Of a stretch of DNA of 64,000 nucleotides, positions 31,191 to 39,309 are shown in pieces. Position 1 is the first letter of the stretch, and every line of letters begins with the position of its first letter. A program made the position numbers and the translations under genes. The notes under the pieces were generated by a model, which had not been told where the DNA came from, searched no databases, and saw nothing but the letters and a program-made list of their open reading frames with translations. Source of the DNA: Candidatus Berkelbacteria bacterium RIFCSPLOWO2_01_FULL_50_28. Lineage in GTDB: Bacteria; Patescibacteriota; UBA1384; 2-12-FULL-50-11. The stretch lies in the NCBI GenBank assembly GCA_001774395.1, contig MEZX01000002.1, positions 160,753 to 224,752 of the forward strand, written 5' to 3'.

Positions 31191-32075
31191 TTATTTGTAT
31201 TCGTGCTGGGCGATTTCGTAGTGAAGTTTTATGCGGTCGTCCCAACTGCGGCCGCGTAGGTCAACAGAGTGCGGTACTTCTTTTATTTCGCCCTTGCTGT
31301 CACGGCGAATAATGCCAACATTGTAGTAAACCATCGGTGTTTCCTCGGCAGTTTTCTTGACGTAATCGGGATGTTTCTCGCCGTAGACGCCGCGCAAGAA
31401 ATCTTCTGTGCTCATGGCCGGGAAAACGTTCGTGTACACGACCGATGGATTGCCGTCGATATACTTGCCGATGTAGCGCGCAAATGCAGGGTCCTTATCG
31501 TCGCCTAGGCACATTTGGTTGAAGAAGATAACTCCACCATCAGCCAGGTGGTGGTTGGCGATCTGGAGCTGATTTTTGAACTCATCCTGACCATCACTGC
31601 CGCCGCGAGCGTGTTGGGGAATTTTGTCGCGAATCGCTTCCGGATAAAGATGATACGGCGGGTAAAGGCCGATGACCTTGGCTGATTTGGGTGGAAAGCT
31701 ATCTTCGCTATAGAGCTCATGCTTCACCTCGAATCGAACGTCATTGAGCTTGGCATTTTCTTGGGCTTGCTCAATTGCTCGGGCACTTTTATCAAGCGCT
31801 ATAACCTTGCTGCCAGGGAAATGTTTGCTAACGAGAATTGAAAACACGCCGCTACCGCAGCCGATATCCAAGAAGTCGATCGAGCCGTTAGAGTCTTGCA
31901 GCGCTTTGGCAATATAAGGCTTAGAAAACTCCCAAGTGAACGGCTGCTCCTCGTAAAACACCGCCATCACGTTATCGCTCTGGTCGGTGCGTTTGCGGTT
32001 AATTGGATCAACTTTTAGTTTAATGCCGGCAAACTCGACATTTTCATCGAACATATTGGGGTTACTAATTGCCAT
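31191..32075 (-). CDS. SAM-dependent methyltransferase (294 aa) with motif I LDIGCGSGVF and a PPY motif
   Basis: FLDIGCGSGVFSILV and GLYPPYH. The [NDS]PP[YF] motif is typical of amino-group (N6-A/N5-Gln-type) methyltransferases. Confidence 0.7.
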   Translation of the reverse strand: MAISNPNMFDENVEFAGIKLKVDPINRKRTDQSDNVMAVFYEEQPFTWEFSKPYIAKALQDSNGSIDFLDIGCGSGVFSILVSKHFPGSKVIALDKSARAIEQAQENAKLNDVRFEVKHELYSEDSFPPKSAKVIGLYPPYHLYPEAIRDKIPQHARGGSDGQDEFKNQLQIANHHLADGGVIFFNQMCLGDDKDPAFARYIGKYIDGNPSVVYTNVFPAMSTEDFLRGVYGEKHPDYVKKTAEETPMVYYNVGIIRRDSKGEIKEVPHSVDLRGRSWDDRIKLHYEIAQHEYK

Positions 32076-32892
32076 TTTCTCCTTTTGTTACGTTATATTT
32101 CTCTGCTGCATCCCACGCTAAACGCCAAATCGCCATCAACATATCCGCAACGTCTTTACTTTCAATGACTGCGGCTAGTAGATTCTTCTTGTATATAGAA
32201 ATGTAGACCTTACCCGCTTTGGGATGCACGGTGATCGATCCAGTAAAAGGAAATCTGTCACGAGGGATATATCGGCTTATCCGTAAGGGATTATTCTCAT
32301 TTTCTTGGACTCTACCGTCGCGATGGGTGTAAATAACGTTAGACTTCGTACCACGTTCTTCCCGCGGTTTTTCATGAACTTCGCCGTAGTTGGGGAAGGC
32401 ATCTTTTAACTCGTCTAAAGCAGTAAACGAAAAAATCTCCATATCCGGATCGGTGCTTGCGCTTGTGCGCATAGTCTTCTGTCCCTCGAGACCTTCGTAG
32501 ATACGGATAACCGGACGATTCTTGGACATTCGAAACAATGCCGCTAGCTGAGGAATAACGGTACCAATCCTCTCTTCGTCTTGTGCCAGTCGCTGCTTTT
32601 GTGTTTCTAAGAGTTTCTTTAGGTTCTCGGGCGATTCGGCACTGTATAGTGTCTTTTTGCCCAATTCTCGATGAGAAGCTAGCCCCTTCTTGCTAAGCTC
32701 GCCCAAGATAAAGTATGCCGTGGGGCGGTTAATGCCGGACTTTGTTGCGATGTTTTGGACAGAGCTTTCGCCAAGCTCTAATGCAGCGAGGTAGACCCTA
32801 GACTCCTTCTCGCTCAATCCGGCACTTGTCAGCATCTCTTCCATTCCTATTTGTATATTAACTTTTTTGCCATCGGTTTTCTTATAACGCAT
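32065..32892 (-). CDS. TrmB-family transcriptional regulator (about 275 aa)
   Basis: LSEKESRVYLAALELGESSVQNIATKSGINRPTAYFILGELSKKGL. Start chosen at M18 (32892) because TTGACA-17-TATAGT ends about 6 nt upstream, making the mRNA leaderless. Alternative starts are 32844 and 32943. Confidence 0.75.
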   Translation of the reverse strand: MRYKKTDGKKVNIQIGMEEMLTSAGLSEKESRVYLAALELGESSVQNIATKSGINRPTAYFILGELSKKGLASHRELGKKTLYSAESPENLKKLLETQKQRLAQDEERIGTVIPQLAALFRMSKNRPVIRIYEGLEGQKTMRTSASTDPDMEIFSFTALDELKDAFPNYGEVHEKPREERGTKSNVIYTHRDGRVQENENNPLRISRYIPRDRFPFTGSITVHPKAGKVYISIYKKNLLAAVIESKDVADMLMAIWRLAWDAAEKYNVTKGENGN

Positions 32893-33233
32893 CTTAACGT
32901 AACTATAATCTAACCTTTGAAATATGTCAAGGGCTATTGACAACTATTGTACAATATGCTATTATCCCCTTTGAAGCTTAACAATAGGTTGTCAATAGAA
33001 ACTGACTTTTCGCCGATAGGGACCACGGCAGAGGCGCTCCTACCCGCAAGGGATGTGAGCGATGCTCGTTTGAGCGGTACGCCGCCCTAAAGACTTTTAG
33101 TTGGTACTTGTCGATCCTTGTGAGCCCACATTCCTTGAATAGCGATTATTAATCACTAGAAAGGGATATTCAGCACCTAACCGTGCTGACATGTAAGGGA
33201 AATAACCTTTACATATCAGTGCGGTTAACGGCT

Positions 33234-33369
33234 GGGGGCGAACGGGTTCGACAGAGACCCAAGTGCGTGGTTAGGGCGTGGTAGCCCAACTCGGAAAAAC
33301 GGCTCAAGAAAGACCGAGCATCACGTAGCAAGTCTTTGGAACTGGGTTCGATTCCCAGCGCCTCCACCA
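33234..33369 (+). ncRNA. ssrA: Miniature tmRNA (ssrA)-like RNA: canonical tmRNA 5' and 3' tRNA-like halves only about 136 nt apart; no identifiable tag reading frame or pseudoknots
   Basis: 5' GGGGGCGAACGGGUUCGACAGAGACCCAAGUGCG resembles B. subtilis GGGGACGUUACGGAUUCGACAGGGAU. 3' GGAACUGGGUUCGAUUCCCAGCGCCUCCACCA resembles GGACGUGGGUUCGACUCCCACCGUCUCCACCA. A G3-U70 pair is present and CCA is encoded. Confidence 0.5.
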
Positions 33370-33548
33370 GATTCGTTTCAACCGGTCGCCGACAAATAAA
33401 GGCGGCCAGCGGCTACCCCCTCCGGGTTTAGGGGTAGCAGTGGGCGGTTATGTAACCCACTGCCTAGGATCACCGCCAAGGTGATCTGACGACTTAGGGA
33501 ACCAAAACTTGGCGAAAGAGAGTCCGTATACTCTCAGGTTCCCGCCTC

Positions 33549-33610
33549 GGATCCGGCTCGAGGCCCGTGCTCGAGCCTGAAATTGAGGGAATTGTCCCTT
33601 GCACTTTACA
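33549..33610 (+). promoter_or_regulatory. Cassette-upstream element A (hairpin GGCTCGAGG-cccgtg-CTCGAGCC + CTGAAATTGAGGGAATTGTCCCTTGCACTTTACA)
   Basis: Member of a 5-copy family (A-E) confined to 33.5-35.6 kb. Confidence 0.6.
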
Positions 33611-33734
33611 AATAGAAAGTTGATAGAGCTTCGGCAAAACTATCCGTTAGTCAGACGACGTTAAGTCCGGCCCTCAGTCGAACGAGTAGCAATACTTGGA
33701 CGAGGATGTATTTCAAGGGAACAGTGAAAGTAAT

Positions 33735-34319
33735 ATGAAAAACCTGACAACTGCCTTGGCCTTCGCCGTTGCCTCGATCGTTTCTGCTCAGACCTCGTTG
33801 GTTTGGGTGGACAGCGCCAAGGGGGGTTCGCCCTCCGTAACAGCTGCCTTCTTCGCGAAGGACGGTTGGGAGGTCTGGGCGTTCGGGGCGAATAACCCCA
33901 AAACGCTCGACCTGGAACTGGGGCGCCTCTTTCCTTGGGGAAAGAAGGTGCTGGTTGGCGGGTACGTTGCCGTTTGGCCGGATTCAAACAGGACCTTCGG
34001 GATACCGTTTGTGATGGTCAACGACAAGGTGCTTGGAGGCCACTTGTGCCTCAAGCTAGGCTGTTACCTGCCGTTAAACGGTGGGCCAACTATCCTTTTC
34101 TCCGATGAGAGTTCGCTCTTGTGGGAGGCCAAAAAAGGGTTAAGTTGGGGGCCGATTCTCTCCTACGTTCAGGTCGACGGTGGTAAGCCAATCGCAAGAT
34201 TGGGACTGTCACTGCGCCTGACGAAGGGGGATGAAACCCTGGAGCTTAGCTGCCAACCGGTTTACTTATCTGGGGACGGGGAAACCCGCTTCCGGATCGG
34301 TATTACCCACCGGTTCTAG
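33735..34319 (+). CDS. Secreted beta-rich protein (about 194 aa), signal peptide, C-terminal ...GITHRF (OMP-like, resembles the 14421 product)
   Basis: MKNLTTALAFAVASIVSAQTS; internal start of track ORF 33696. Confidence 0.55.
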   Translation: MKNLTTALAFAVASIVSAQTSLVWVDSAKGGSPSVTAAFFAKDGWEVWAFGANNPKTLDLELGRLFPWGKKVLVGGYVAVWPDSNRTFGIPFVMVNDKVLGGHLCLKLGCYLPLNGGPTILFSDESSLLWEAKKGLSWGPILSYVQVDGGKPIARLGLSLRLTKGDETLELSCQPVYLSGDGETRFRIGITHRF

Positions 34320-34461
34320 CTCGCTGACCGAGTACGGTTGGGCGCTGAATCGCGCCTTGGAGCTGCATAAAGGAGCGGCAGATCGGGCAGAAACAAGACG
34401 CAAAGAAGTGTGATGGAGGTTCCCTATTGTTAGCCTCCTGCGTCGCCCAGTAATGTTTCAG

Positions 34462-34524
34462 TTTTCATCCACGGCCGGATTCATCCGGCCTGAAATTGAG
34501 AGCTGAAAGGTTCTCGCACATTTT
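34462..34524 (+). promoter_or_regulatory. Cassette-upstream element B (hairpin GGCCGGAT-tc-ATCCGGCC + CTGAAATTGAGAGCTGAAAGGTTCTCGCACATTTT)
   Basis: About 85% identical to element E. Confidence 0.6.
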
Positions 34525-34557
34525 ACAGGGTAGCGACCAACGCCAGGAGAAAAATAC

Positions 34558-34782
34558 ATGACAAGCATCCTCGCCATCCTCGTCGCGATCATTCTGGCAG
34601 TTGGGAACACAGTGCTGATGGGCTCGGCCCTGATAGCGCTCCAGCATGGCCGGTTTGGTCTTCTGCTCGTTGCGCTGATGGTGCTGTTCGTCTCCGGCGA
34701 ACTGATCATCAAGCCCCTGTTTCGACTTGTGGGCGAACAGGGAGTGCGAAAGCACTTGGCTAAGCGCAACAAGGGAGAGTAG
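34558..34782 (+). CDS. Small 2-TM membrane protein (74 aa)
   Basis: MTSILAILVAIILAVGNTVLMGSALIALQHGRFGLLLVALMVLFVSG...; SD CCAGGAGA. Confidence 0.55.
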   Translation: MTSILAILVAIILAVGNTVLMGSALIALQHGRFGLLLVALMVLFVSGELIIKPLFRLVGEQGVRKHLAKRNKGE

Positions 34783-34822
34783 CCCTCGTATTACTCACGT
34801 TTCAGCAATTGAAACGCCCTTT

Positions 34823-34886
34823 GATCCGGCTCGAGGCCTGTGCTCGAGCCTGAAACTAAGGGCTGAAAAGCTCTAATTTGCACATT
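34823..34886 (+). promoter_or_regulatory. Cassette-upstream element C (hairpin GGCTCGAGG-cctgtg-CTCGAGCC + CTGAAACTAAGGGCTGAAAAGCTCTAATTTGCACATT)
   Basis: About 80% identical to element A. Confidence 0.6.
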
Positions 34887-34898
34887 CCAGGAGGCAAG

Positions 34899-35114
34899 AT
34901 GCGTGTAATACTTAAGGTTTACCATGACTGCGGCAGTGATATCAGTACAGTCGAGTTTGATCTCGACGATCTGGTCAGAACACTCAACGCTGGCGGGACC
35001 TTCGAGGTCAAGGCAATGTGCGACGATTTGCACAGTAGGAGACTGGGCCTCCGATATAGCTTGGGACACGAGAATCATACGGGCAAATTTGTTGTTGTGC
35101 CCAGGAAAAGCTGA
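34899..35114 (+). CDS. Small hypothetical protein (71 aa; MRVILKVYHDCGSDISTVEFDLDDLVRTLNAGG...)
   Basis: AGGAGG lies 4 nt upstream of the ATG at 34899. The track ORF starts at 34878 without an SD. Confidence 0.5.
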   Translation: MRVILKVYHDCGSDISTVEFDLDDLVRTLNAGGTFEVKAMCDDLHSRRLGLRYSLGHENHTGKFVVVPRKS

Positions 35115-35127
35115 ACCACAACCTTCA

Positions 35128-35180
35128 TATCCGGCTTGAGCCGTCTCGAGCCCGAAATTGAGAGCTGAAAAAGCTAAGGA
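35128..35180 (+). promoter_or_regulatory. Cassette-upstream element D (hairpin GGCTTGAGCC-gt-CTCGAGCC + CGAAATTGAGAGCTGAAAAAGC, running straight into the SD)
   Basis: Truncated variant lacking the TTGCACAT block. Confidence 0.55.
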
Positions 35181-35190
35181 GAACATTAAA

Positions 35191-35478
35191 ATGGCGACAA
35201 TCATTGCCAACGAACAGTTGACCAAGACTCTAGAACCGCTTCTTGAAGATGTCGATGCGATCTATGTGGATACCCACTCATCGACGGGTCAGATTGACGA
35301 GGAACGAATAAGCCAGGCTGCAGAGCTGGCTCGCAGGGGAAAACGAGTTGTCCTTTTCGGATGGTTCGCCGAGGCCGAGGTGGGTAGTAAAATCGCCCCG
35401 TGTATGACCTACCAGAACGCGGTCTATGCCCGTTTACCGCTTTCGATCGACCAGATGCGGGAACTGGGCAAAGGATGA
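35191..35478 (+). CDS. Small hypothetical protein (95 aa; MATIIANEQLTKTLEPLLEDVDAIYVDTHSSTGQ...)
   Basis: AAGGAGA lies 8 nt upstream of the ATG. Confidence 0.5.
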   Translation: MATIIANEQLTKTLEPLLEDVDAIYVDTHSSTGQIDEERISQAAELARRGKRVVLFGWFAEAEVGSKIAPCMTYQNAVYARLPLSIDQMRELGKG

Positions 35479-35489
35479 TGTCGTCTCAA

Positions 35490-35550
35490 CTTTCATCCAC
35501 GGCCGGATCTTTCCGGCCTGAAAATGAGAGCTGAAAAGTTCTTGCACATC
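35490..35550 (+). promoter_or_regulatory. Cassette-upstream element E (hairpin GGCCGGA-tctt-TCCGGCC + CTGAAAATGAGAGCTGAAAAGTTCTTGCACATCC)
   Basis: Family member upstream of the REC-zinc-finger gene. Confidence 0.6.
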
Positions 35551-35568
35551 CAACTACAGGTGAAATAA

Positions 35569-36291
35569 ATGCGTATTTTAGTGGTAGAAGATTCCGAACT
35601 GCACCGCCGCTCCGCTATCAAGACACTCGAGGGCCACGAGCTTACGATCGCCGCCAACTACAAGCAGGCTGTCAATTGCTTGGGAGGCGCCACGGCCAAC
35701 GAGTACGAGCGTCAAGAGAAAGGAGATCCGTACGACGTGCTACTGACCGATATGATGATCGGGAGCGGCGAGACCAATGACGAGGGGACGCACGCCTTCG
35801 GGTTCGTCCTGGCTCTGATAGCCGCCCTGCGTGGGGTTAAGCACATTGCACTGCTCACCGACATTAACCATCACCACGCTGGTCCTAGCCAAGCGCTCGA
35901 CGCGATCGGCCCGGCCTACTACCGCTGCCCGGGAGAATTCGCGCCAAACTTCGAGATCAACGGCGCTAAGGCGATGTTCGTCCACGCCCCGGTGAGGACG
36001 TTTGAGACGCTCAAGAATCAGCCGTGCGAGAATTGTGTTGATCTGGTGGCCGTGAGGTATAGCACCTGCGATTACCCGCCGAGCTGGAAGCCGGGGGAGT
36101 GCCGATACTGTAAAGGCACCGCTTTCTTAGAGGACGACGAAGAGCGCGAGGTTTGCCCCGCTTGCAAAGCTGATCCCGGCAAATGCAGCGATTGCAAAGG
36201 AACCGGCGTGGCCGACCGCAACCTGGTTGGCAAAGATTGGGGAATGGTCCTGAAGGACCTGCTCGGAACGCTACCAACCGACGAGGTGTAG
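35569..36291 (+). CDS. Response-regulator receiver (REC)-like domain fused to a DnaJ-type cysteine-rich (CxxCxGxG) zinc-finger region, 240 aa
   Basis: N-terminus MRILVVEDSE...YDVLLTDMMIG (acidic pocket and putative phospho-Asp). C-terminus CRYCKGTA...CPACKADPGKCSDCKGTGV. Confidence 0.6.
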   Translation: MRILVVEDSELHRRSAIKTLEGHELTIAANYKQAVNCLGGATANEYERQEKGDPYDVLLTDMMIGSGETNDEGTHAFGFVLALIAALRGVKHIALLTDINHHHAGPSQALDAIGPAYYRCPGEFAPNFEINGAKAMFVHAPVRTFETLKNQPCENCVDLVAVRYSTCDYPPSWKPGECRYCKGTAFLEDDEEREVCPACKADPGKCSDCKGTGVADRNLVGKDWGMVLKDLLGTLPTDEV

Positions 36292-36310
36292 CCAATCACC
36301 TCCGCAAACC

Positions 36311-36345
36311 CGCCCTGAAATATGGGCGGGATATTTTTATGCCCT
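36311..36345 (+). terminator. Intrinsic terminator (CCCGCCC-tgaaatat-GGGCGGG + aTATTTTT) closing the cassette array
   Basis: A perfect 7-bp stem plus a T tract 20 nt after the stop. Confidence 0.65.
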
Positions 36346-36501
36346 AACCTGTCTTATCATATATATGCGATAAAGTAGGTTAGGAGCCGTATGCTATATA
36401 TGACATACGGGTGACAGTGAATACTGGAAATGATTGGTGGCTCGGCGTGAGTTATACGCGCAAGTCTCCCTATTCGGTCGAAAGTTGCTTATTCGCTTCG
36501 C

Positions 36502-38370: not shown

Positions 38371-39309
38371 TCAACTCTTAAGTGCGGGGTCAAGTGCGTC
38401 GCCTCTTTTTGTGTCGTGAAAACGATGATGGGCTTCGCGCAGGCTACGGTCGGTCACGTGGGTGTAAATTTGCGTCGTCGCGACCGACGAGTGGCCAAGC
38501 AGAGCCTGAACCGAGCGAAGGTCGGCGCCGTTTTGCAGCAAGTCGGTGGCAAAGCCGTGACGAAGTTTGTGCGGGGTGACTGGTTTACTCAAGCCGGCTT
38601 TGAGCGCCAGAGTGTGGAGAATGCGCTGGACGGAACGGGCGGTGAGCGATGTTTTGTTGCTGTCGAGACGGCTATTGGTGTAGTGTCTGATGAAAACAAA
38701 GGGGTTGCTATCGCTGCGTGACTCCAAGTAATCGGCCAAAATCTCGAGCGCCTCGTCGGATAAGAATACCGGTCGAACTTTGCCGCCTTTGCCCTTAACT
38801 GAAAATTCGCCTTTCACTAGGCTGACCTCGTTTCTTTTTAGCGCCACCAGCTCGCTGACCCGTAGGCCCGTCGAAAAGAGGGTTTTAACAATGGCCCGGT
38901 CCCGTTTATCGGTTAATCGTTCGCCCGCAATCGCCGCGTTGAGCCGTTCCATATCATCAGCGCTAATAAACTGAATCTGTCGCTGGCCGGTTTTGCTCAA
39001 CGGTATTTTAGCGATCGAAATTACATTGGCTTCCGACATCGAGAGAAACCGTAGCAGCGAGCGCAGGGCAATTAAGTAATAATTTCGGCTGCTCGGCCCA
39101 AGCGGCGGCGTGTGCTTGGTGGCAAGATGCTCTTGAAACTCTAAAATGTCGTCGCCGCCGATTTTCTCAACATCGATTAGTTTGGCTTCAAGTGCCCAGG
39201 CAGAAAAAGAATTTAGGTAGTGCTCGTAATTGCGCAAAGTGTACGGGGAGTAGTTGCGTCCCACTCGGCAGTAGCGCAGGTATTCCTTAACGGCGCGCGT
39301 GATGGTCAT
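38371..39309 (-). CDS. xerC: Tyrosine site-specific recombinase XerC/XerD family
   Basis: C-terminal ...HKLRHGFATDLLQNGADLRSVQALLGHSSVATTQIYTHV (R..HxxR...Y catalytic signature). Confidence 0.9.
   Translation of the reverse strand: MTITRAVKEYLRYCRVGRNYSPYTLRNYEHYLNSFSAWALEAKLIDVEKIGGDDILEFQEHLATKHTPPLGPSSRNYYLIALRSLLRFLSMSEANVISIAKIPLSKTGQRQIQFISADDMERLNAAIAGERLTDKRDRAIVKTLFSTGLRVSELVALKRNEVSLVKGEFSVKGKGGKVRPVFLSDEALEILADYLESRSDSNPFVFIRHYTNSRLDSNKTSLTARSVQRILHTLALKAGLSKPVTPHKLRHGFATDLLQNGADLRSVQALLGHSSVATTQIYTHVTDRSLREAHHRFHDTKRGDALDPALKS

What the first reader, a model, noticed from the sequence alone, without database searches (positions are those of the whole stretch)
33549..36345. Tandem array of five small gene cassettes, each led by a conserved hairpin-plus-motif element, immediately downstream of the tmRNA-like gene
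Five consecutive + strand genes each begin 15-110 nt after a 60-70 nt conserved element placed right after the previous stop codon. The products are a secreted OMP-like protein, a 2-TM peptide, two small soluble proteins and a REC-zinc-finger protein. The element is a GC-rich perfect hairpin whose stem occurs as two pairing-preserving sequence variants (GGCCGGAT/ATCCGGCC in B and E; GGCTCGAG/CTCGAGCC in A, C and D). It is followed by CCTGAAATTGAGAGCTGAAAAG(N)TCT(T)GCACAT. The stem sequence changes while the pairing is kept, which suggests structure is maintained at the RNA or cruciform level. There is no U-tract, so it is not a classic terminator. TGAAAT-N17-TTGCAC resembles ECF/alternative-sigma promoter architecture more than sigma70. 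The family is absent from the other 61 kb. The array starts about 180 nt after the ssrA-like gene, a classic island insertion site, and ends with a strong terminator before efp. This looks like a modular, separately regulated cassette system (shared dedicated promoter or shared 5'-UTR riboregulator) that I cannot match to a described system
Basis: seen in the sequence. Interest (0 to 1): 0.8.

Follow-up and report, generated by a model that had tools for sequence, protein, structure and literature searches.

The report
Structured RNA junctions between shuffled gene cassettes
In an uncultured groundwater bacterium (Candidatus Berkelbacteria), every gene of one small operon is preceded by a copy of the same roughly 70-base folded element; related genomes have reshuffled the genes exactly at these elements, so they look like a previously undescribed junction signal for modular gene cassettes.

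Summary
A covariance model finds exactly five copies in the 64-kb window (42-73 bits; next best 14 bits), all on the + strand, one before each of five genes. The window is Candidatus Berkelbacteria (CPR). The same element occurs only in equivalent arrays of related Berkelbacteria, in 7 further loci. Scans of 185,579 species genomes and of JGI metagenomes gave otherwise only chance singletons.

- P1, a GC-rich hairpin of variable sequence.
- A conserved linker, YGAAAYU.
- P2, a second hairpin. Its 5' strand can instead pair with the flank upstream of P1 (P0), giving one long irregular hairpin.

Pairing is supported by compensatory changes (96% of cells paired). There are 27 G-U wobbles against 1 A-C, so the sense strand folds.

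One strong sigma-70-type promoter and one terminator bracket the whole block. The motif spacing varies by 8 nt, and ribosome-binding sites sit 4-15 nt after some elements. Internal promoters are therefore unlikely.

Between genomes, the 5' half of an element follows the upstream gene and the 3' half follows the downstream gene.

Best reading: an intercistronic RNA processing/stability module that doubles as the cassette junction. It is not an integron attC, a terminator or a REP. The mechanism is inferred, not shown.

The parts
32065..32892 (-). TrmB-family transcription regulator gene, divergent from the array. A TrmB gene lies next to every related array.
   Evidence: Pfam PF01978 at 4.4e-14. 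TrmB genes adjoin the arrays in L019, L021, L051 and L056-L060. The start codon follows the gene calls.
32937..32965 (+). Strong sigma-70-type promoter (TTGACA-17-TATTAT with TG) at the head of the locus. It is the only good + strand promoter before the terminator.
   Evidence: 11 of 12 matches. It is conserved in L019 (alignment). Equivalent TTGACA-N17-TAnnAT sites were read in L057 and L056.
32975..33227 (+). Conserved non-coding leader of about 250 nt. It includes the hairpin CAGCAC-N6-GTGCTG and ends in ATCAGTGCGG.
   Evidence: Alignment with L019. The same blocks were read in L056 and L057. No Rfam match.
33234..33369 (+). Mini tmRNA-like RNA of 136 nt. It has an acceptor stem with G3-U70, a T-arm and CCA, but no tag reading frame and no pseudoknots.
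   Evidence: Rfam RF00023 at 65.2 bits, with only 50 nt in place of 282 model positions. ARAGORN is negative. It is conserved with compensatory changes in L056, L057 and L058.
33370..33535 (+). Conserved spacer between the mini-tmRNA and the first element, with no T-tract terminator.
   Evidence: Sequence. Homologous stretches were read in L056 (8008-8200) and L057 (8440-8690).
33536..33608 (+). Element A. P0 flank, P1 GGCTCGAG/CTCGAGCC, linker TGAAATT, P2 GAGGGA-ATTG-TCCCTT, then TGCAC.
   Evidence: Model hit of 45.9 bits although A was left out of the seed. Fold.
33735..34319 (+). Gene 1, 194 aa. It has a signal peptide and is predicted all-beta with a C-terminal Phe. It is the only gene family present in all eight related arrays that carry the element.
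   Evidence: Only 8 homologues are known, all from Berkelbacteria.
34454..34521 (+). Element B. P0 TTTCAGTTTTCA pairs with TGAGAGCTGAAA. P1 is GGCCGGAT/ATCCGGCC and P2 is GAGAGC-TGAAAG-GTTCTC, followed by GCACAT.
   Evidence: 70.3 bits. The minimum-energy fold shows the 12-bp P0.
34558..34782 (+). Gene 2, 74 aa, with two hydrophobic helices.
   Evidence: Homologues occur in L019 and L057 at other positions in the array.
34809..34887 (+). Element C. P0 GCCCTT pairs with AAGGGC (both sides changed relative to GCTCTC/GAGAGC). P1 is GGCTCGAG/CTCGAGCC and P2 is AGGGC-TGAAAA-GCTCT, followed by TGCACAT.
   Evidence: 62.6 bits. Folds.
34899..35114 (+). Gene 3, 71 aa, with a strong AGGAGG ribosome-binding site. 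No homologue in the other arrays.
35118..35186 (+). Element D, the most degenerate copy. P1 is GGCTTGAG/CTCGAGCC with one G-U pair, P2 is reduced to GAGC/GCT(A), and TGCACAT is absent. The AAGGAG ribosome-binding site follows directly.
   Evidence: 42.4 bits although D was left out of the seed. Sequence.
35191..35478 (+). Gene 4, 95 aa, an ORFan.
   Evidence: It is the only member of its cluster among 5.8 billion clusters.
35482..35549 (+). Element E. P0 TCTCAacTTTCA pairs with TGAAAaTGAGA. P1 is GGCCGGA/TCCGGCC and P2 is GAGAGC-TGAAAA-GTTCTT, followed by GCACAT.
   Evidence: 72.8 bits. Fold.
35569..36291 (+). Gene 5, 240 aa. A receiver-like domain is followed by CxxCxGxG zinc fingers and a conserved GKDWG motif.
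   Evidence: Homologue alignment. AF2 model of pLDDT 84.5. Foldseek hits to receiver domains. Weak hits to the DnaJ zinc finger and to antiterminator Q.
36309..36340 (+). Intrinsic terminator that ends the unit (CCCGCCC-TGAAATAT-GGGCGGG plus a T-tract).
   Evidence: Equivalent terminators close the arrays in L014, L019, L056 and L057.

Best explanation
The five elements are copies of a lineage-specific structured RNA module of about 70 nt. The modules lie between the cistrons of one long transcription unit. That unit runs from the promoter at 32937, through a leader, a mini-tmRNA and a spacer, through five element-plus-gene modules, to the terminator at 36309-36340.

Each module can fold in two ways. 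One is a long irregular hairpin, in which P0 (6-12 bp), an internal loop formed by AUCC and YGAAAYU, and P1 (7-9 bp) stack on one another. The other is P1 plus a second small hairpin, P2, which reuses the 3' strand of P0.

Inferred mechanism:
1. The long hairpin forms first, as the RNA is made.
2. A double-strand-specific endonuclease (RNase III-like) cuts it in or next to the conserved linker.
3. P1 stays behind as a protective 3' hairpin on the upstream mRNA.
4. The freed strand folds into P2, a protective 5' hairpin on the downstream mRNA.
5. Each cassette thus becomes its own stable message with its own ribosome-binding site.

The linker is the only sequence shared by all modules. It is therefore also where recombination joins cassettes, and this explains why gene content and order differ between related genomes.

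Shown here: the repeat family, its restriction to these arrays, both helices and the alternative helix, folding of the sense strand, the mosaic junctions, and the single promoter and terminator framework.

Inferred only: co-transcription, cleavage, the identity of the nuclease, and the stabilising role of the hairpins.
For: - Copy number and restriction. The window has five hits of 42-73 bits and nothing else, even with filters off. Copies held out of the seed (A, D, L019 copy 4) were recovered. The family also occurs in L014, L019, L028, L051 and L056-L060, always inside the arrays and always in the gene orientation. The 37-bit pattern scan of 185,579 species genomes gave one real locus (L014, with a single exact match in that whole genome) and 13 chance singletons. 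The 35-bit metagenome scan gave two real contigs out of 33.
- Structure. Over 24 distinct copies, 96.4% of cells pair. Nine of 13 pairs show changes on both sides, no shuffle of 500 reached the observed value, and the slid controls pair at 17-55%.
- Strand. There are 27 G-U cells against 1 A-C, so the + strand is the one that folds.
- P0. It appears in the minimum-energy fold of all 15 copies tested once the P2 3' strand is removed. It pairs in 80% of cells, against 37-48% when slid and 70.5 +/- 2% when partners are permuted (0 of 1000 permutations reach it). RNAalifold independently returns P1 plus the P0 core.
- One transcription unit. There is one strong + strand promoter and one + strand terminator in 32800-36500, and no convincing internal promoter. 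The promoter and leader are conserved in relatives.
- Mosaic junctions. The 5' half of an element is most similar to copies that share its upstream gene (wB with L14_3, 0.89; wA with L57_1, 0.79; wC with L57_2, 0.79). The 3' half is most similar to copies that share its downstream gene (wB, L19_1 and L57_1, 0.81; L19_2 with L57_3, 0.81).
- Variable content. The array contents differ, and only gene 1 is shared by all.
Against: - There is no transcript, 5'-end or 3'-end data, so co-transcription and cleavage are inferred.
- No RNase III gene was looked for or found in the window. The rest of the genome could not be searched.
- P0 is weak in some copies, with only 5 of 9 positions paired in A and L57_3.
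- The distance from the upstream stop codon to the element ranges from about 0 to 146 nt. The distance from the element to the start codon ranges from 4 to 128 nt. Any coupling to translation is therefore not uniform.
- The conserved TGCACAU after P2, and the recurrent GGGUAGCGACC UTR hairpin seen, are not explained by the model.
- The mosaic junctions fit site-specific recombination as well as homologous recombination.
Confidence: 0.4

Rival explanations
1. The element is an RNA operator. A dedicated trans-acting factor binds the conserved linker and P2 on every cistron and co-regulates translation or read-through. The factor could be the receiver-like zinc-finger protein encoded at the end of the array, the adjacent TrmB protein's regulon, or an RNA from the conserved leader or mini-tmRNA. 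P0 and P2 would be the off and on conformers. This works like ANTAR or EutV dual-hairpin control of the eut operon.
For: - The same element stands before every gene, including the gene for the regulator-like protein.
- The two conformers exclude each other, like a switch.
- The linker and the 5' strand of P2 are the most conserved part.
- Protein 5 has a receiver fold. Its Cys-rich C-terminus gives weak hits to antiterminator Q (phrog_127 at E 0.0016; PDB 7ubj at E 0.04).
Against: - The receiver/zinc-finger gene is missing from several arrays that still carry elements (L014/L058, L056, L057, L059).
- The hits to Q are weak and are most simply explained by the zinc fingers. The DnaJ zinc finger scores equally.
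- No terminator lies downstream of P2 for an antiterminator to act on.
- The P2 loop is not conserved in L057 or in A-type copies.
- No significant complementarity between leader and elements was found.
Confidence: 0.2
2. The element is a DNA-level recombination site folded as single-stranded DNA, attC-like. An unidentified recombinase uses it to capture, excise and reorder cassettes next to the mini-tmRNA. This would be an integron-like system without an integron integrase.
For: - Cassette content and order differ between close relatives. Many cassettes are ORFans, and all are co-oriented.
- The junctions fall at the conserved core between P1 and P2.
- Structure is conserved more than sequence, as an imperfect hairpin of about 55-60 nt with an internal loop.
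- In L056 the last 19 nt of the mini-tmRNA are repeated 43 nt downstream, like an att scar.
- A tyrosine recombinase gene lies 2 kb away (38371-39309).
Against: - No RYYYAAC or GTTRRRY boxes flank the hairpin on either strand (read).
- The strand with G-T wobbles is the coding strand, whereas attC folds on the bottom strand. The bottom strand here would carry 27 A-C mismatches.
- The nearby recombinase is XerC/D-like (225 bits). It scores 127 bits against a cutoff of 265 for the integron integrase model. It sits in an rpsF-ssb-rpsR-efp context and is absent near the arrays of L058 and L059.
- Up to 87% identity over 67 nt between copies makes ordinary homologous recombination sufficient.
Confidence: 0.12
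3. Each element is a transcription boundary. P1 ends the upstream transcript, and the downstream conserved motif (TGAAAY ... TTGCAC, or TTGAGA ... -10) is a promoter for an alternative or ECF-type sigma factor. Each cassette would then be separately transcribed.
For: - TGAAAC resembles the -35 box of ECF sigma factors such as sigma-W (established knowledge, not tested here).
- TTGAGA matches TTGACA at 5 of 6 positions.
- The element is always upstream of a gene and co-oriented with it.
- The simple scan reports one weak promoter-like site, at 35165-35192 in element D.
Against: - The TGAAAY to TGCAC distance varies from 22 to 30 nt, because the intervening hairpin loop and inserts vary.
- The supposed spacer shows compensatory base-pair changes.
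- In D and in L051 the ribosome-binding site or start codon lies 4-15 nt after the element. A transcript starting after a -10 box placed at the TGCAC position (absent from D) would lack them.
- There is no T-tract after P1, although this organism uses canonical T-tract terminators at operon ends.
- G-U wobbles on the sense strand indicate selection on RNA.
Confidence: 0.08
4. The elements are neutral or selfish repeats, of the REP, BIME or MITE type. They spread within this locus and have no role in expression.
For: - The architecture is an imperfect palindrome.
- Copies within an array are more alike than expected, for example B and E at 87%. This suggests spread or gene conversion.
Against: - The repeat is not dispersed. 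The other 61 kb hold no copy, and the whole L014 genome gave only the array locus in the pattern scan.
- There is one copy at almost every intergenic junction, always in the gene orientation.
- It has been kept across genomes whose gene 1 proteins are only 58-84% identical, with compensatory changes in three helices.
Confidence: 0.05

Closest known systems
RNase III processing signals between the early genes of phage T7 (Dunn and Studier 1973, cited in PMC3082872); more generally, selective RNA processing and stabilisation by intercistronic hairpins
   Same: - A similar irregular hairpin recurs between successive cistrons of one long transcript.
- It has a lower and an upper helix around an asymmetric internal loop.
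- Cutting such a hairpin would leave a 3' hairpin on the upstream message.
   Different: - Cleavage is not shown here.
- The element has a third strand that allows an alternative 5' hairpin (P2).
- It is chromosomal, in a CPR bacterium.
- It coincides with breakpoints of gene-content variation.
Integron cassette arrays and CALINs (clusters of attC sites lacking an integrase)
   Same: - The array holds small, co-oriented, often ORFan genes.
- The genes are separated by elements conserved in structure rather than in sequence.
- Content and order differ between relatives.
- One promoter sits at the head of the array.
   Different: - There are no R''/R' core boxes.
- The coding strand folds, not the bottom strand.
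- There is no IntI.
- The junction lies in the middle of the element, between two hairpins, not at one end.
- The elements carry 5'-UTR features.
REP/BIME, ERIC and Correia-type intergenic repeats
   Same: - They are transcribed imperfect palindromes in intergenic regions of operons.
- They can affect mRNA stability or be cut by RNase III.
   Different: - Those families are dispersed genome-wide and occur in both orientations.
- This one is confined to a single locus, has one orientation and occupies almost every junction.
ANTAR dual-hairpin leaders, for example in the Enterococcus eut operon controlled by EutV
   Same: - A two-hairpin RNA motif is repeated before several genes of one operon.
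- That operon also encodes a receiver-domain regulator.
   Different: - There are no hexaloops with A1 and G4.
- No overlapping terminator is present.
- No ANTAR domain is present.
- The regulator-like gene is absent from several arrays.
tmRNA genes as integration sites for genomic islands
   Same: - A tmRNA-like gene lies directly upstream of a variable gene block.
- In L056 its 3' end is duplicated.
   Different: - The RNA is a 136-nt tRNA-like domain without a tag.
- The block behind it is conserved as a locus.
- No flanking att repeat occurs in the window.
- No integrase lies inside the block.

Membership tests
Integron attC site / cassette array | Conserved R'' (RYYYAAC) and R' (GTTRRRY) core boxes at the two ends of the hairpin | tested here: not met
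   Reading all five elements and their relatives on both strands finds no such boxes. The conserved core is YGAAAYUGAGRG, in the middle of the element.
Integron attC site / cassette array | The bottom strand, relative to the cassette genes, is the folded recombinogenic strand | tested here: not met
   There are 27 G-T wobble cells on the coding strand against 1 A-C. The bottom strand would carry the mismatches.
Integron attC site / cassette array | An integron integrase (IntI) with attI and Pc next to the array (optional for CALINs) | tested here: not met
   The only tyrosine recombinase nearby (38371-39309) is XerC/D-like. It scores 127 bits against a cutoff of 265 for the integron integrase model.
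Integron attC site / cassette array | Co-oriented cassettes whose content varies between related genomes | tested here: met
   The arrays of the window, L019, L014/L058, L056, L057 and L059 share only gene 1. The order differs between them.
Intrinsic (Rho-independent) terminator | A GC-rich hairpin immediately followed by a T/U-tract | tested here: not met
   P1 is followed by YGAAAYUGAG. The terminator scan finds only 36309-36340 on the + strand.
Sigma-70 or ECF-type promoter | Two conserved boxes at a fixed spacing (+/-1 nt), with the transcription start upstream of the ribosome-binding site | tested here: not met
   The spacing of the candidate boxes varies from 22 to 30 nt. The ribosome-binding site or ATG lies 4-15 nt after the element in D and L051.
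REP/BIME/MITE dispersed repeats | Many copies dispersed through the genome, in both orientations | tested here: not met
   The other 61 kb hold no copy. In scans of 185,579 genomes and of JGI metagenomes only array loci are real hits. Whole genomes of this lineage could not be searched with the model.
ANTAR-responsive dual hairpin | Two hexaloop hairpins with A1 and G4, the second overlapping a terminator, plus an ANTAR-domain regulator | tested here: not met
   P1 loops are 2-10 nt long and variable. The P2 loop is UGAAAA or variable. There is no terminator. No ANTAR hit appears in Pfam for the five proteins.
RNase III processing signal (T7 type) | An irregular double-stranded hairpin of roughly two helical turns with an internal loop, placed between cistrons | tested here: met
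   P0 (6-12 bp), a 2-bp step and P1 (7-9 bp) form around an asymmetric internal loop in all 15 copies folded.
RNase III processing signal (T7 type) | Cleavage by RNase III in vivo or in vitro | not testable with these tools
   No transcript-end data are available.
Any described RNA family (Rfam 15) | A score at or above a family's gathering threshold | tested here: not met
   Only tmRNA and tRNAs pass in the window. At E up to 5, nothing overlaps the elements in 32900-36400.
tmRNA (the neighbouring gene) | A tRNA-like domain: 7-bp acceptor stem with G3-U70, T-arm and 3' CCA | tested here: met
   The Rfam alignment covers both ends of the model. The acceptor pairs were read from the sequence. 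Compensatory changes occur in L058.
tmRNA (the neighbouring gene) | An internal tag reading frame with a resume codon and a stop, plus pseudoknots | tested here: not met
   Only about 50 nt replace 282 model positions. ARAGORN finds no tmRNA. The four-genome alignment shows two small hairpins and no conserved frame.

The most novel reading that the evidence does not exclude
The locus is a cassette-exchange system of CPR bacteria that needs no integron integrase. One bipartite hairpin element would serve two roles. On DNA it would be the recombination junction that lets promoterless ORFan cassettes be gained, lost and reordered behind a tag-less mini-tmRNA. On RNA it would be the processing signal that turns each captured cassette into a stable, translatable message. 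The adjacent TrmB regulator and the receiver/zinc-finger protein would control the whole array.
Probability: 0.15. Interest if true: 0.85.

Novelty: new variant of a known kind. Interest (0 to 1): 0.6.

Why it matters
CPR bacteria make up a large part of bacterial diversity, but very little is known about how they regulate genes.

- **A candidate undescribed RNA family.** It is supported by covariation, has two alternative folds, and is repeated at almost every gene junction of one operon. It gives a concrete, testable case of post-transcriptional operon organisation in this group.
- **A second way to build cassette arrays.** The halves of each element travel with the neighbouring genes. Modular arrays of ORFan genes can therefore arise without the integron machinery.
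- **A handle for finding more loci.** The locus also carries a conserved mini-tmRNA without a tag and a TrmB regulator. These features could be used to search for similar loci in other CPR lineages.

Tried and rejected
- **Viral contigs.** The pattern scan gave no hits.
- **Genome and metagenome scans.** Apart from the Berkelbacteria arrays, all hits were single and failed the covariance model.
- **Sigma-54 and sigma-70 readings of the conserved motif.** Both were rejected by eye. There is no GG/GC spacing and no consistent -10 box, and the promoter scan agrees.
- **attC boxes.** None were found on either strand.
- **Leader or mini-tmRNA pairing with the elements.** RNAduplex z-scores ranged from -2.2 to +1.2 with no recurrent site. 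An earlier run timed out.
- **Protein family searches for the five products.** Pfam, NCBIfam, PADLOC and PHROGs gave nothing above noise, except a weak Q-like hit for protein 5.
- **PDB sequence search with the protein 5 alignment.** All hits had E of 0.02 or worse.
- **AF2 model of protein 1.** It was too poor (pLDDT 36) to use for a fold search.
- **Homologue search for protein 4.** It found only the protein itself.
- **Distant loci L020 (phage-like) and L021.** Both carry homologues of protein 5 but no copies of the element. L021 has a different two-copy 27-nt repeat.
- **Second copy of the tmRNA 3' end in the window.** None was found.
- **Literature searches.** Searches on CPR intergenic repeats, attC in Patescibacteria, and Berkelbacteria tmRNA found nothing relevant.

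Full report
**Source and setting**

The exact protein encoded at 35569-36291 is found on contigs of Candidatus Berkelbacteria bacterium RIFCSPLOWO2_01_FULL_50_28 (GCA_001776125.1), a member of the Candidate Phyla Radiation. The window looks like ordinary chromosome. It holds GroEL, type IV pilus genes, purD, gltX, efp, rpsR, ssb and rpsF.

**Checking the observation**

The sequence shows five similar stretches, one before each of five + strand genes. The 22-mer core matches four times with up to 3 mismatches, against 0.00 expected.

I built a covariance model from seven copies: three from the window and four from relatives. Copies A and D were left out. In the window it finds exactly five hits:
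- A, 33548-33606, 45.9 bits.
- B, 34466-34521, 70.3 bits.
- C, 34821-34885, 62.6 bits.
- D, 35126-35186, 42.4 bits.
- E, 35494-35549, 72.8 bits.

With filters off, nothing else exceeds 14 bits. The tmRNA-like gene lies 179 nt upstream, and a canonical terminator closes the block.

**Anatomy**

It has these parts:
- P1 is the GC-rich hairpin of 7-9 bp. Its sequence varies, and its loop varies in length (2-10 nt) and in sequence.
- A conserved linker, YGAAAYU, follows P1.
- P2 is a second hairpin, GAGRGN-loop-NYYCUY. In copy A and its relatives it reads GAGGGA-AUUG-UCCCUU, changed on both sides. In L057 its loop is entirely different.
- Most copies then carry UGCACAU.
- Several copies add a further small hairpin, GGGURGCGACCNNCGCY, just before the ribosome-binding site.

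Over 24 distinct copies, 96.4% of P1 and P2 cells form standard pairs. Nine of 13 pairs show changes on both sides. No shuffle of 500 reaches the observed values, and sliding the partner drops pairing to 17-55%.

The mispairs are asymmetric, with 27 G-U cells against one A-C. The folded strand is therefore the sense strand. This argues for RNA, or at least for top-strand single-stranded nucleic acid. It argues against a double-stranded protein-binding palindrome or a bottom-strand structure.

**An alternative helix**

Folding each intergenic region showed that the flank 5' of P1 (consensus CAGCUCUCA) is complementary to UGAGAGCUG. That stretch is the end of the linker plus the 5' strand of P2.

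- With the 3' strand of P2 removed, all 15 copies tested fold into the same long irregular hairpin. It consists of P0, a 2x3 internal loop, a 2-bp step (UC with GA), a C-U mismatch and P1.
- In a gapless register, 80% of P0 cells pair. Slid controls pair at 37-48%. Permuting partners among copies gives 70.5 +/- 2%, and none of 1000 permutations reaches 80%.
- Copy C shows the compensation clearly. It pairs AAGGGC with GCCCUU where other copies pair GAGAGC with GCUCUC.
- RNAalifold, run independently on flanked sequences, returns P1 and the P0 core.

P0 and P2 share a strand, so they exclude each other.

**Distribution**

- A 37-bit pattern scanned over one genome from each of 185,579 species gave 14 loci. 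Thirteen are chance singletons in unrelated phyla. One is a Berkelbacteria genome (L014), with a single exact match in that whole genome.
- A 35-bit pattern over JGI metagenomes gave 33 loci. Only two pass the model (L028, L051).
- Loci reached through homologues of proteins 1 and 5 added L019 and L056-L060, all of which carry copies.
- In every case the copies lie in one array of small co-oriented genes next to a TrmB-family gene.
- Homologues of protein 5 in a phage-like region (L020) and in a distant CPR genome (L021) have no copies.

The family is thus restricted both to this lineage and to this locus. That removes the generic promoter or REP objection as far as the available data allow.

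**Transcription framework**

Between 32800 and 36500 the scan finds one strong + strand promoter (32937-32965, TTGACA-17-TATTAT with TG). It also finds its divergent twin for the TrmB gene and a single + strand terminator at 36309-36340. The promoter and a leader of about 250 nt are conserved in L019. I also read them in L056 and L057.

- The TGAAAY to TGCAC distance runs from 22 to 30 nt, because P2 loops and inserts vary.
- The intervening stretch shows compensatory pairing.
- In D and in L051 the ribosome-binding site or start codon follows the element by only 4-15 nt. The element must therefore lie inside the mRNA.

P1 has no T-tract, while operon-end terminators in these genomes are canonical. 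The simplest reading is one transcript of about 3.4 kb with the elements between cistrons. This is an inference. No transcript data exist here.

**Cassette behaviour**

Clustering the array proteins shows that only gene 1 is present in all eight arrays that carry the element. The arrays read:
- Window: gene 1, 2-TM peptide, ORFan, ORFan, receiver/zinc-finger protein.
- L019: a new TM peptide, 2-TM peptide, gene 1, two TM peptides, receiver/zinc-finger protein.
- L057: 2-TM peptide, a 154-aa protein, gene 1.
- L056: a CxxC protein, two others, gene 1.
- L014/L058: CxxC protein, gene 1, a 120-aa protein.

Gene 4 of the window has no relative among 5.8 billion protein clusters.

I split each element at the linker and compared the two 70-nt halves across genomes. 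The 5' half groups with copies that share the upstream gene: wB with L14_3 at 0.89, wA with L57_1 at 0.79, and wC with L57_2 at 0.79. The 3' half groups with copies that share the downstream gene: wB, L19_1 and L57_1 at 0.81, and L19_2 with L57_3 at 0.81.

A cassette therefore runs from a P2 hairpin through its UTR and ORF to a P1 hairpin, and cassettes are joined at the conserved linker.

**Mechanism**

The model I consider most likely links these facts.
1. The long P0-P1 hairpin has the form of a T7-type RNase III signal: two helices around an asymmetric internal loop, placed between cistrons of a polycistronic RNA. The T7 early RNAs are the classic case (Dunn and Studier 1973, cited in PMC3082872).
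2. A cut in the linker would leave P1 as a 3' hairpin on the upstream message.
3. The cut would free UGAGRGC to fold into P2 at the new 5' end of the downstream message.
4. This would explain why one strand has two conserved partners.
5. The linker, being the only sequence common to all modules, is then also the natural site for homologous exchange between cassettes.

The steps shown are the structures, the folded strand, the distribution, the mosaic junctions and the promoter-terminator frame. The steps inferred are co-transcription, cleavage, the nuclease and the stabilising effect.

**Rivals**

- RNA operator for a trans-acting factor. This is attractive because protein 5 has a receiver fold. 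Its Cys-rich tail gives weak Q-antiterminator hits in two libraries. However, that gene is missing from several arrays that keep the elements, and the hits are at noise level.
- attC-like recombination site. This fits the cassette dynamics but fails three defining features: the core boxes, the folded strand and the integrase.
- Separate promoters. This fails on spacing and geometry.
- Neutral repeat. This fails on distribution, orientation and covariation.

**The neighbouring tmRNA-like gene**

It is a conserved 136-139-nt RNA with a full tRNA-like domain (G3-U70, T-arm, CCA). Only two small hairpins stand where the tag frame and pseudoknots should be. It is present at the same place in L056, L057 and L058, with compensatory changes, and absent in L019 and L059.

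In L056 its last 19 nt are repeated 43 nt downstream. The window has no such repeat. The array is therefore not a recent island in ssrA. The mini-tmRNA is part of a conserved locus, and it deserves study in its own right.

**Verdict**

It is a new RNA element family and a new variant of intercistronic hairpin and cassette-array organisation. It is narrowly distributed, and its mechanism remains inferred. Interest 0.6.

Noticed in passing
window 33234-33369; also L056 7808-7946, L057 8224-8359, L058 2688-2823: A conserved 136-139-nt tmRNA-like RNA. It has a complete tRNA-like domain (G3-U70, T-arm, CCA) but no tag reading frame and no pseudoknots. It always lies between a TrmB gene and the cassette array. 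ARAGORN does not call it. Whether these genomes also hold a full-length ssrA could not be checked.
   Followed up: partly
L056 7926-7946 and 7989-8007: The last 19 nt of the mini-tmRNA (ATTCTCGCCGCCTCCACCA) are repeated 43 nt downstream of its CCA end. This looks like an att-type scar of an integration event. The window has no equivalent repeat.
   Followed up: partly
window 32975-33227 and 33370-33535: Two conserved non-coding stretches flank the mini-tmRNA: a leader of about 250 nt behind the strong promoter, and a spacer of about 170 nt. Both are conserved in relatives and have recurring hairpins (CAGCAC-N6-GTGCTG; GGGGTAGCAGTGG). Neither has an Rfam match.
   Followed up: partly
window 36309-36330; L014 about 5253-5232 (- strand); L056 10611-10632; L057 10763-10784: The terminators that close the arrays share the loop YTGAAATAT, which resembles the element linker CTGAAAT. 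In the window the 12-mer CCGCCCTGAAAT matches CCGGCCTGAAAT of element B (family D5). They may derive from an element.
   Followed up: no
window 33735-34319: Protein 1 has a signal peptide, an all-beta prediction and a C-terminal Phe. These are outer-membrane-protein hallmarks, yet CPR bacteria are generally thought to lack an outer membrane. Only 8 homologues exist, all from Berkelbacteria. The AF2 model is unreliable (pLDDT 36).
   Followed up: partly
window 35569-36291: Protein 5 belongs to an unannotated family. A receiver-like domain keeps the Asp positions and a conserved NHH motif. It is followed by a variable number of CxxCxGxG zinc fingers and an invariant GKDWG...VL...L tail. There are weak hits to antiterminator Q (phrog_127; PDB 7ubj). 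One homologue lies in a phage-like region (L020).
   Followed up: partly
L021 6549-6575 and 6949-6975: A distant CPR genome has a comparable locus: a TrmB gene, small genes and a receiver/zinc-finger gene. It carries a different 27-nt repeat (93% identical) before two of the small genes. Element-marked arrays may therefore be more general, with lineage-specific sequences.
   Followed up: no
window 36343-36384: A 42-nt palindrome with 76% complementary arms (CCTAACCTGTCTTATCATATA / TATGCGATAAAGTAGGTTAGG) lies directly after the array terminator, between it and efp.
   Followed up: no
window 33560 versus L003 7980-8038: The sister assembly GCA_001776175.1 carries a single-base difference in P1 of element A (CTCGAG to CTCTAG). 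It breaks one pair and lowers the model score from 45.9 to 38.2 bits.
   Followed up: no
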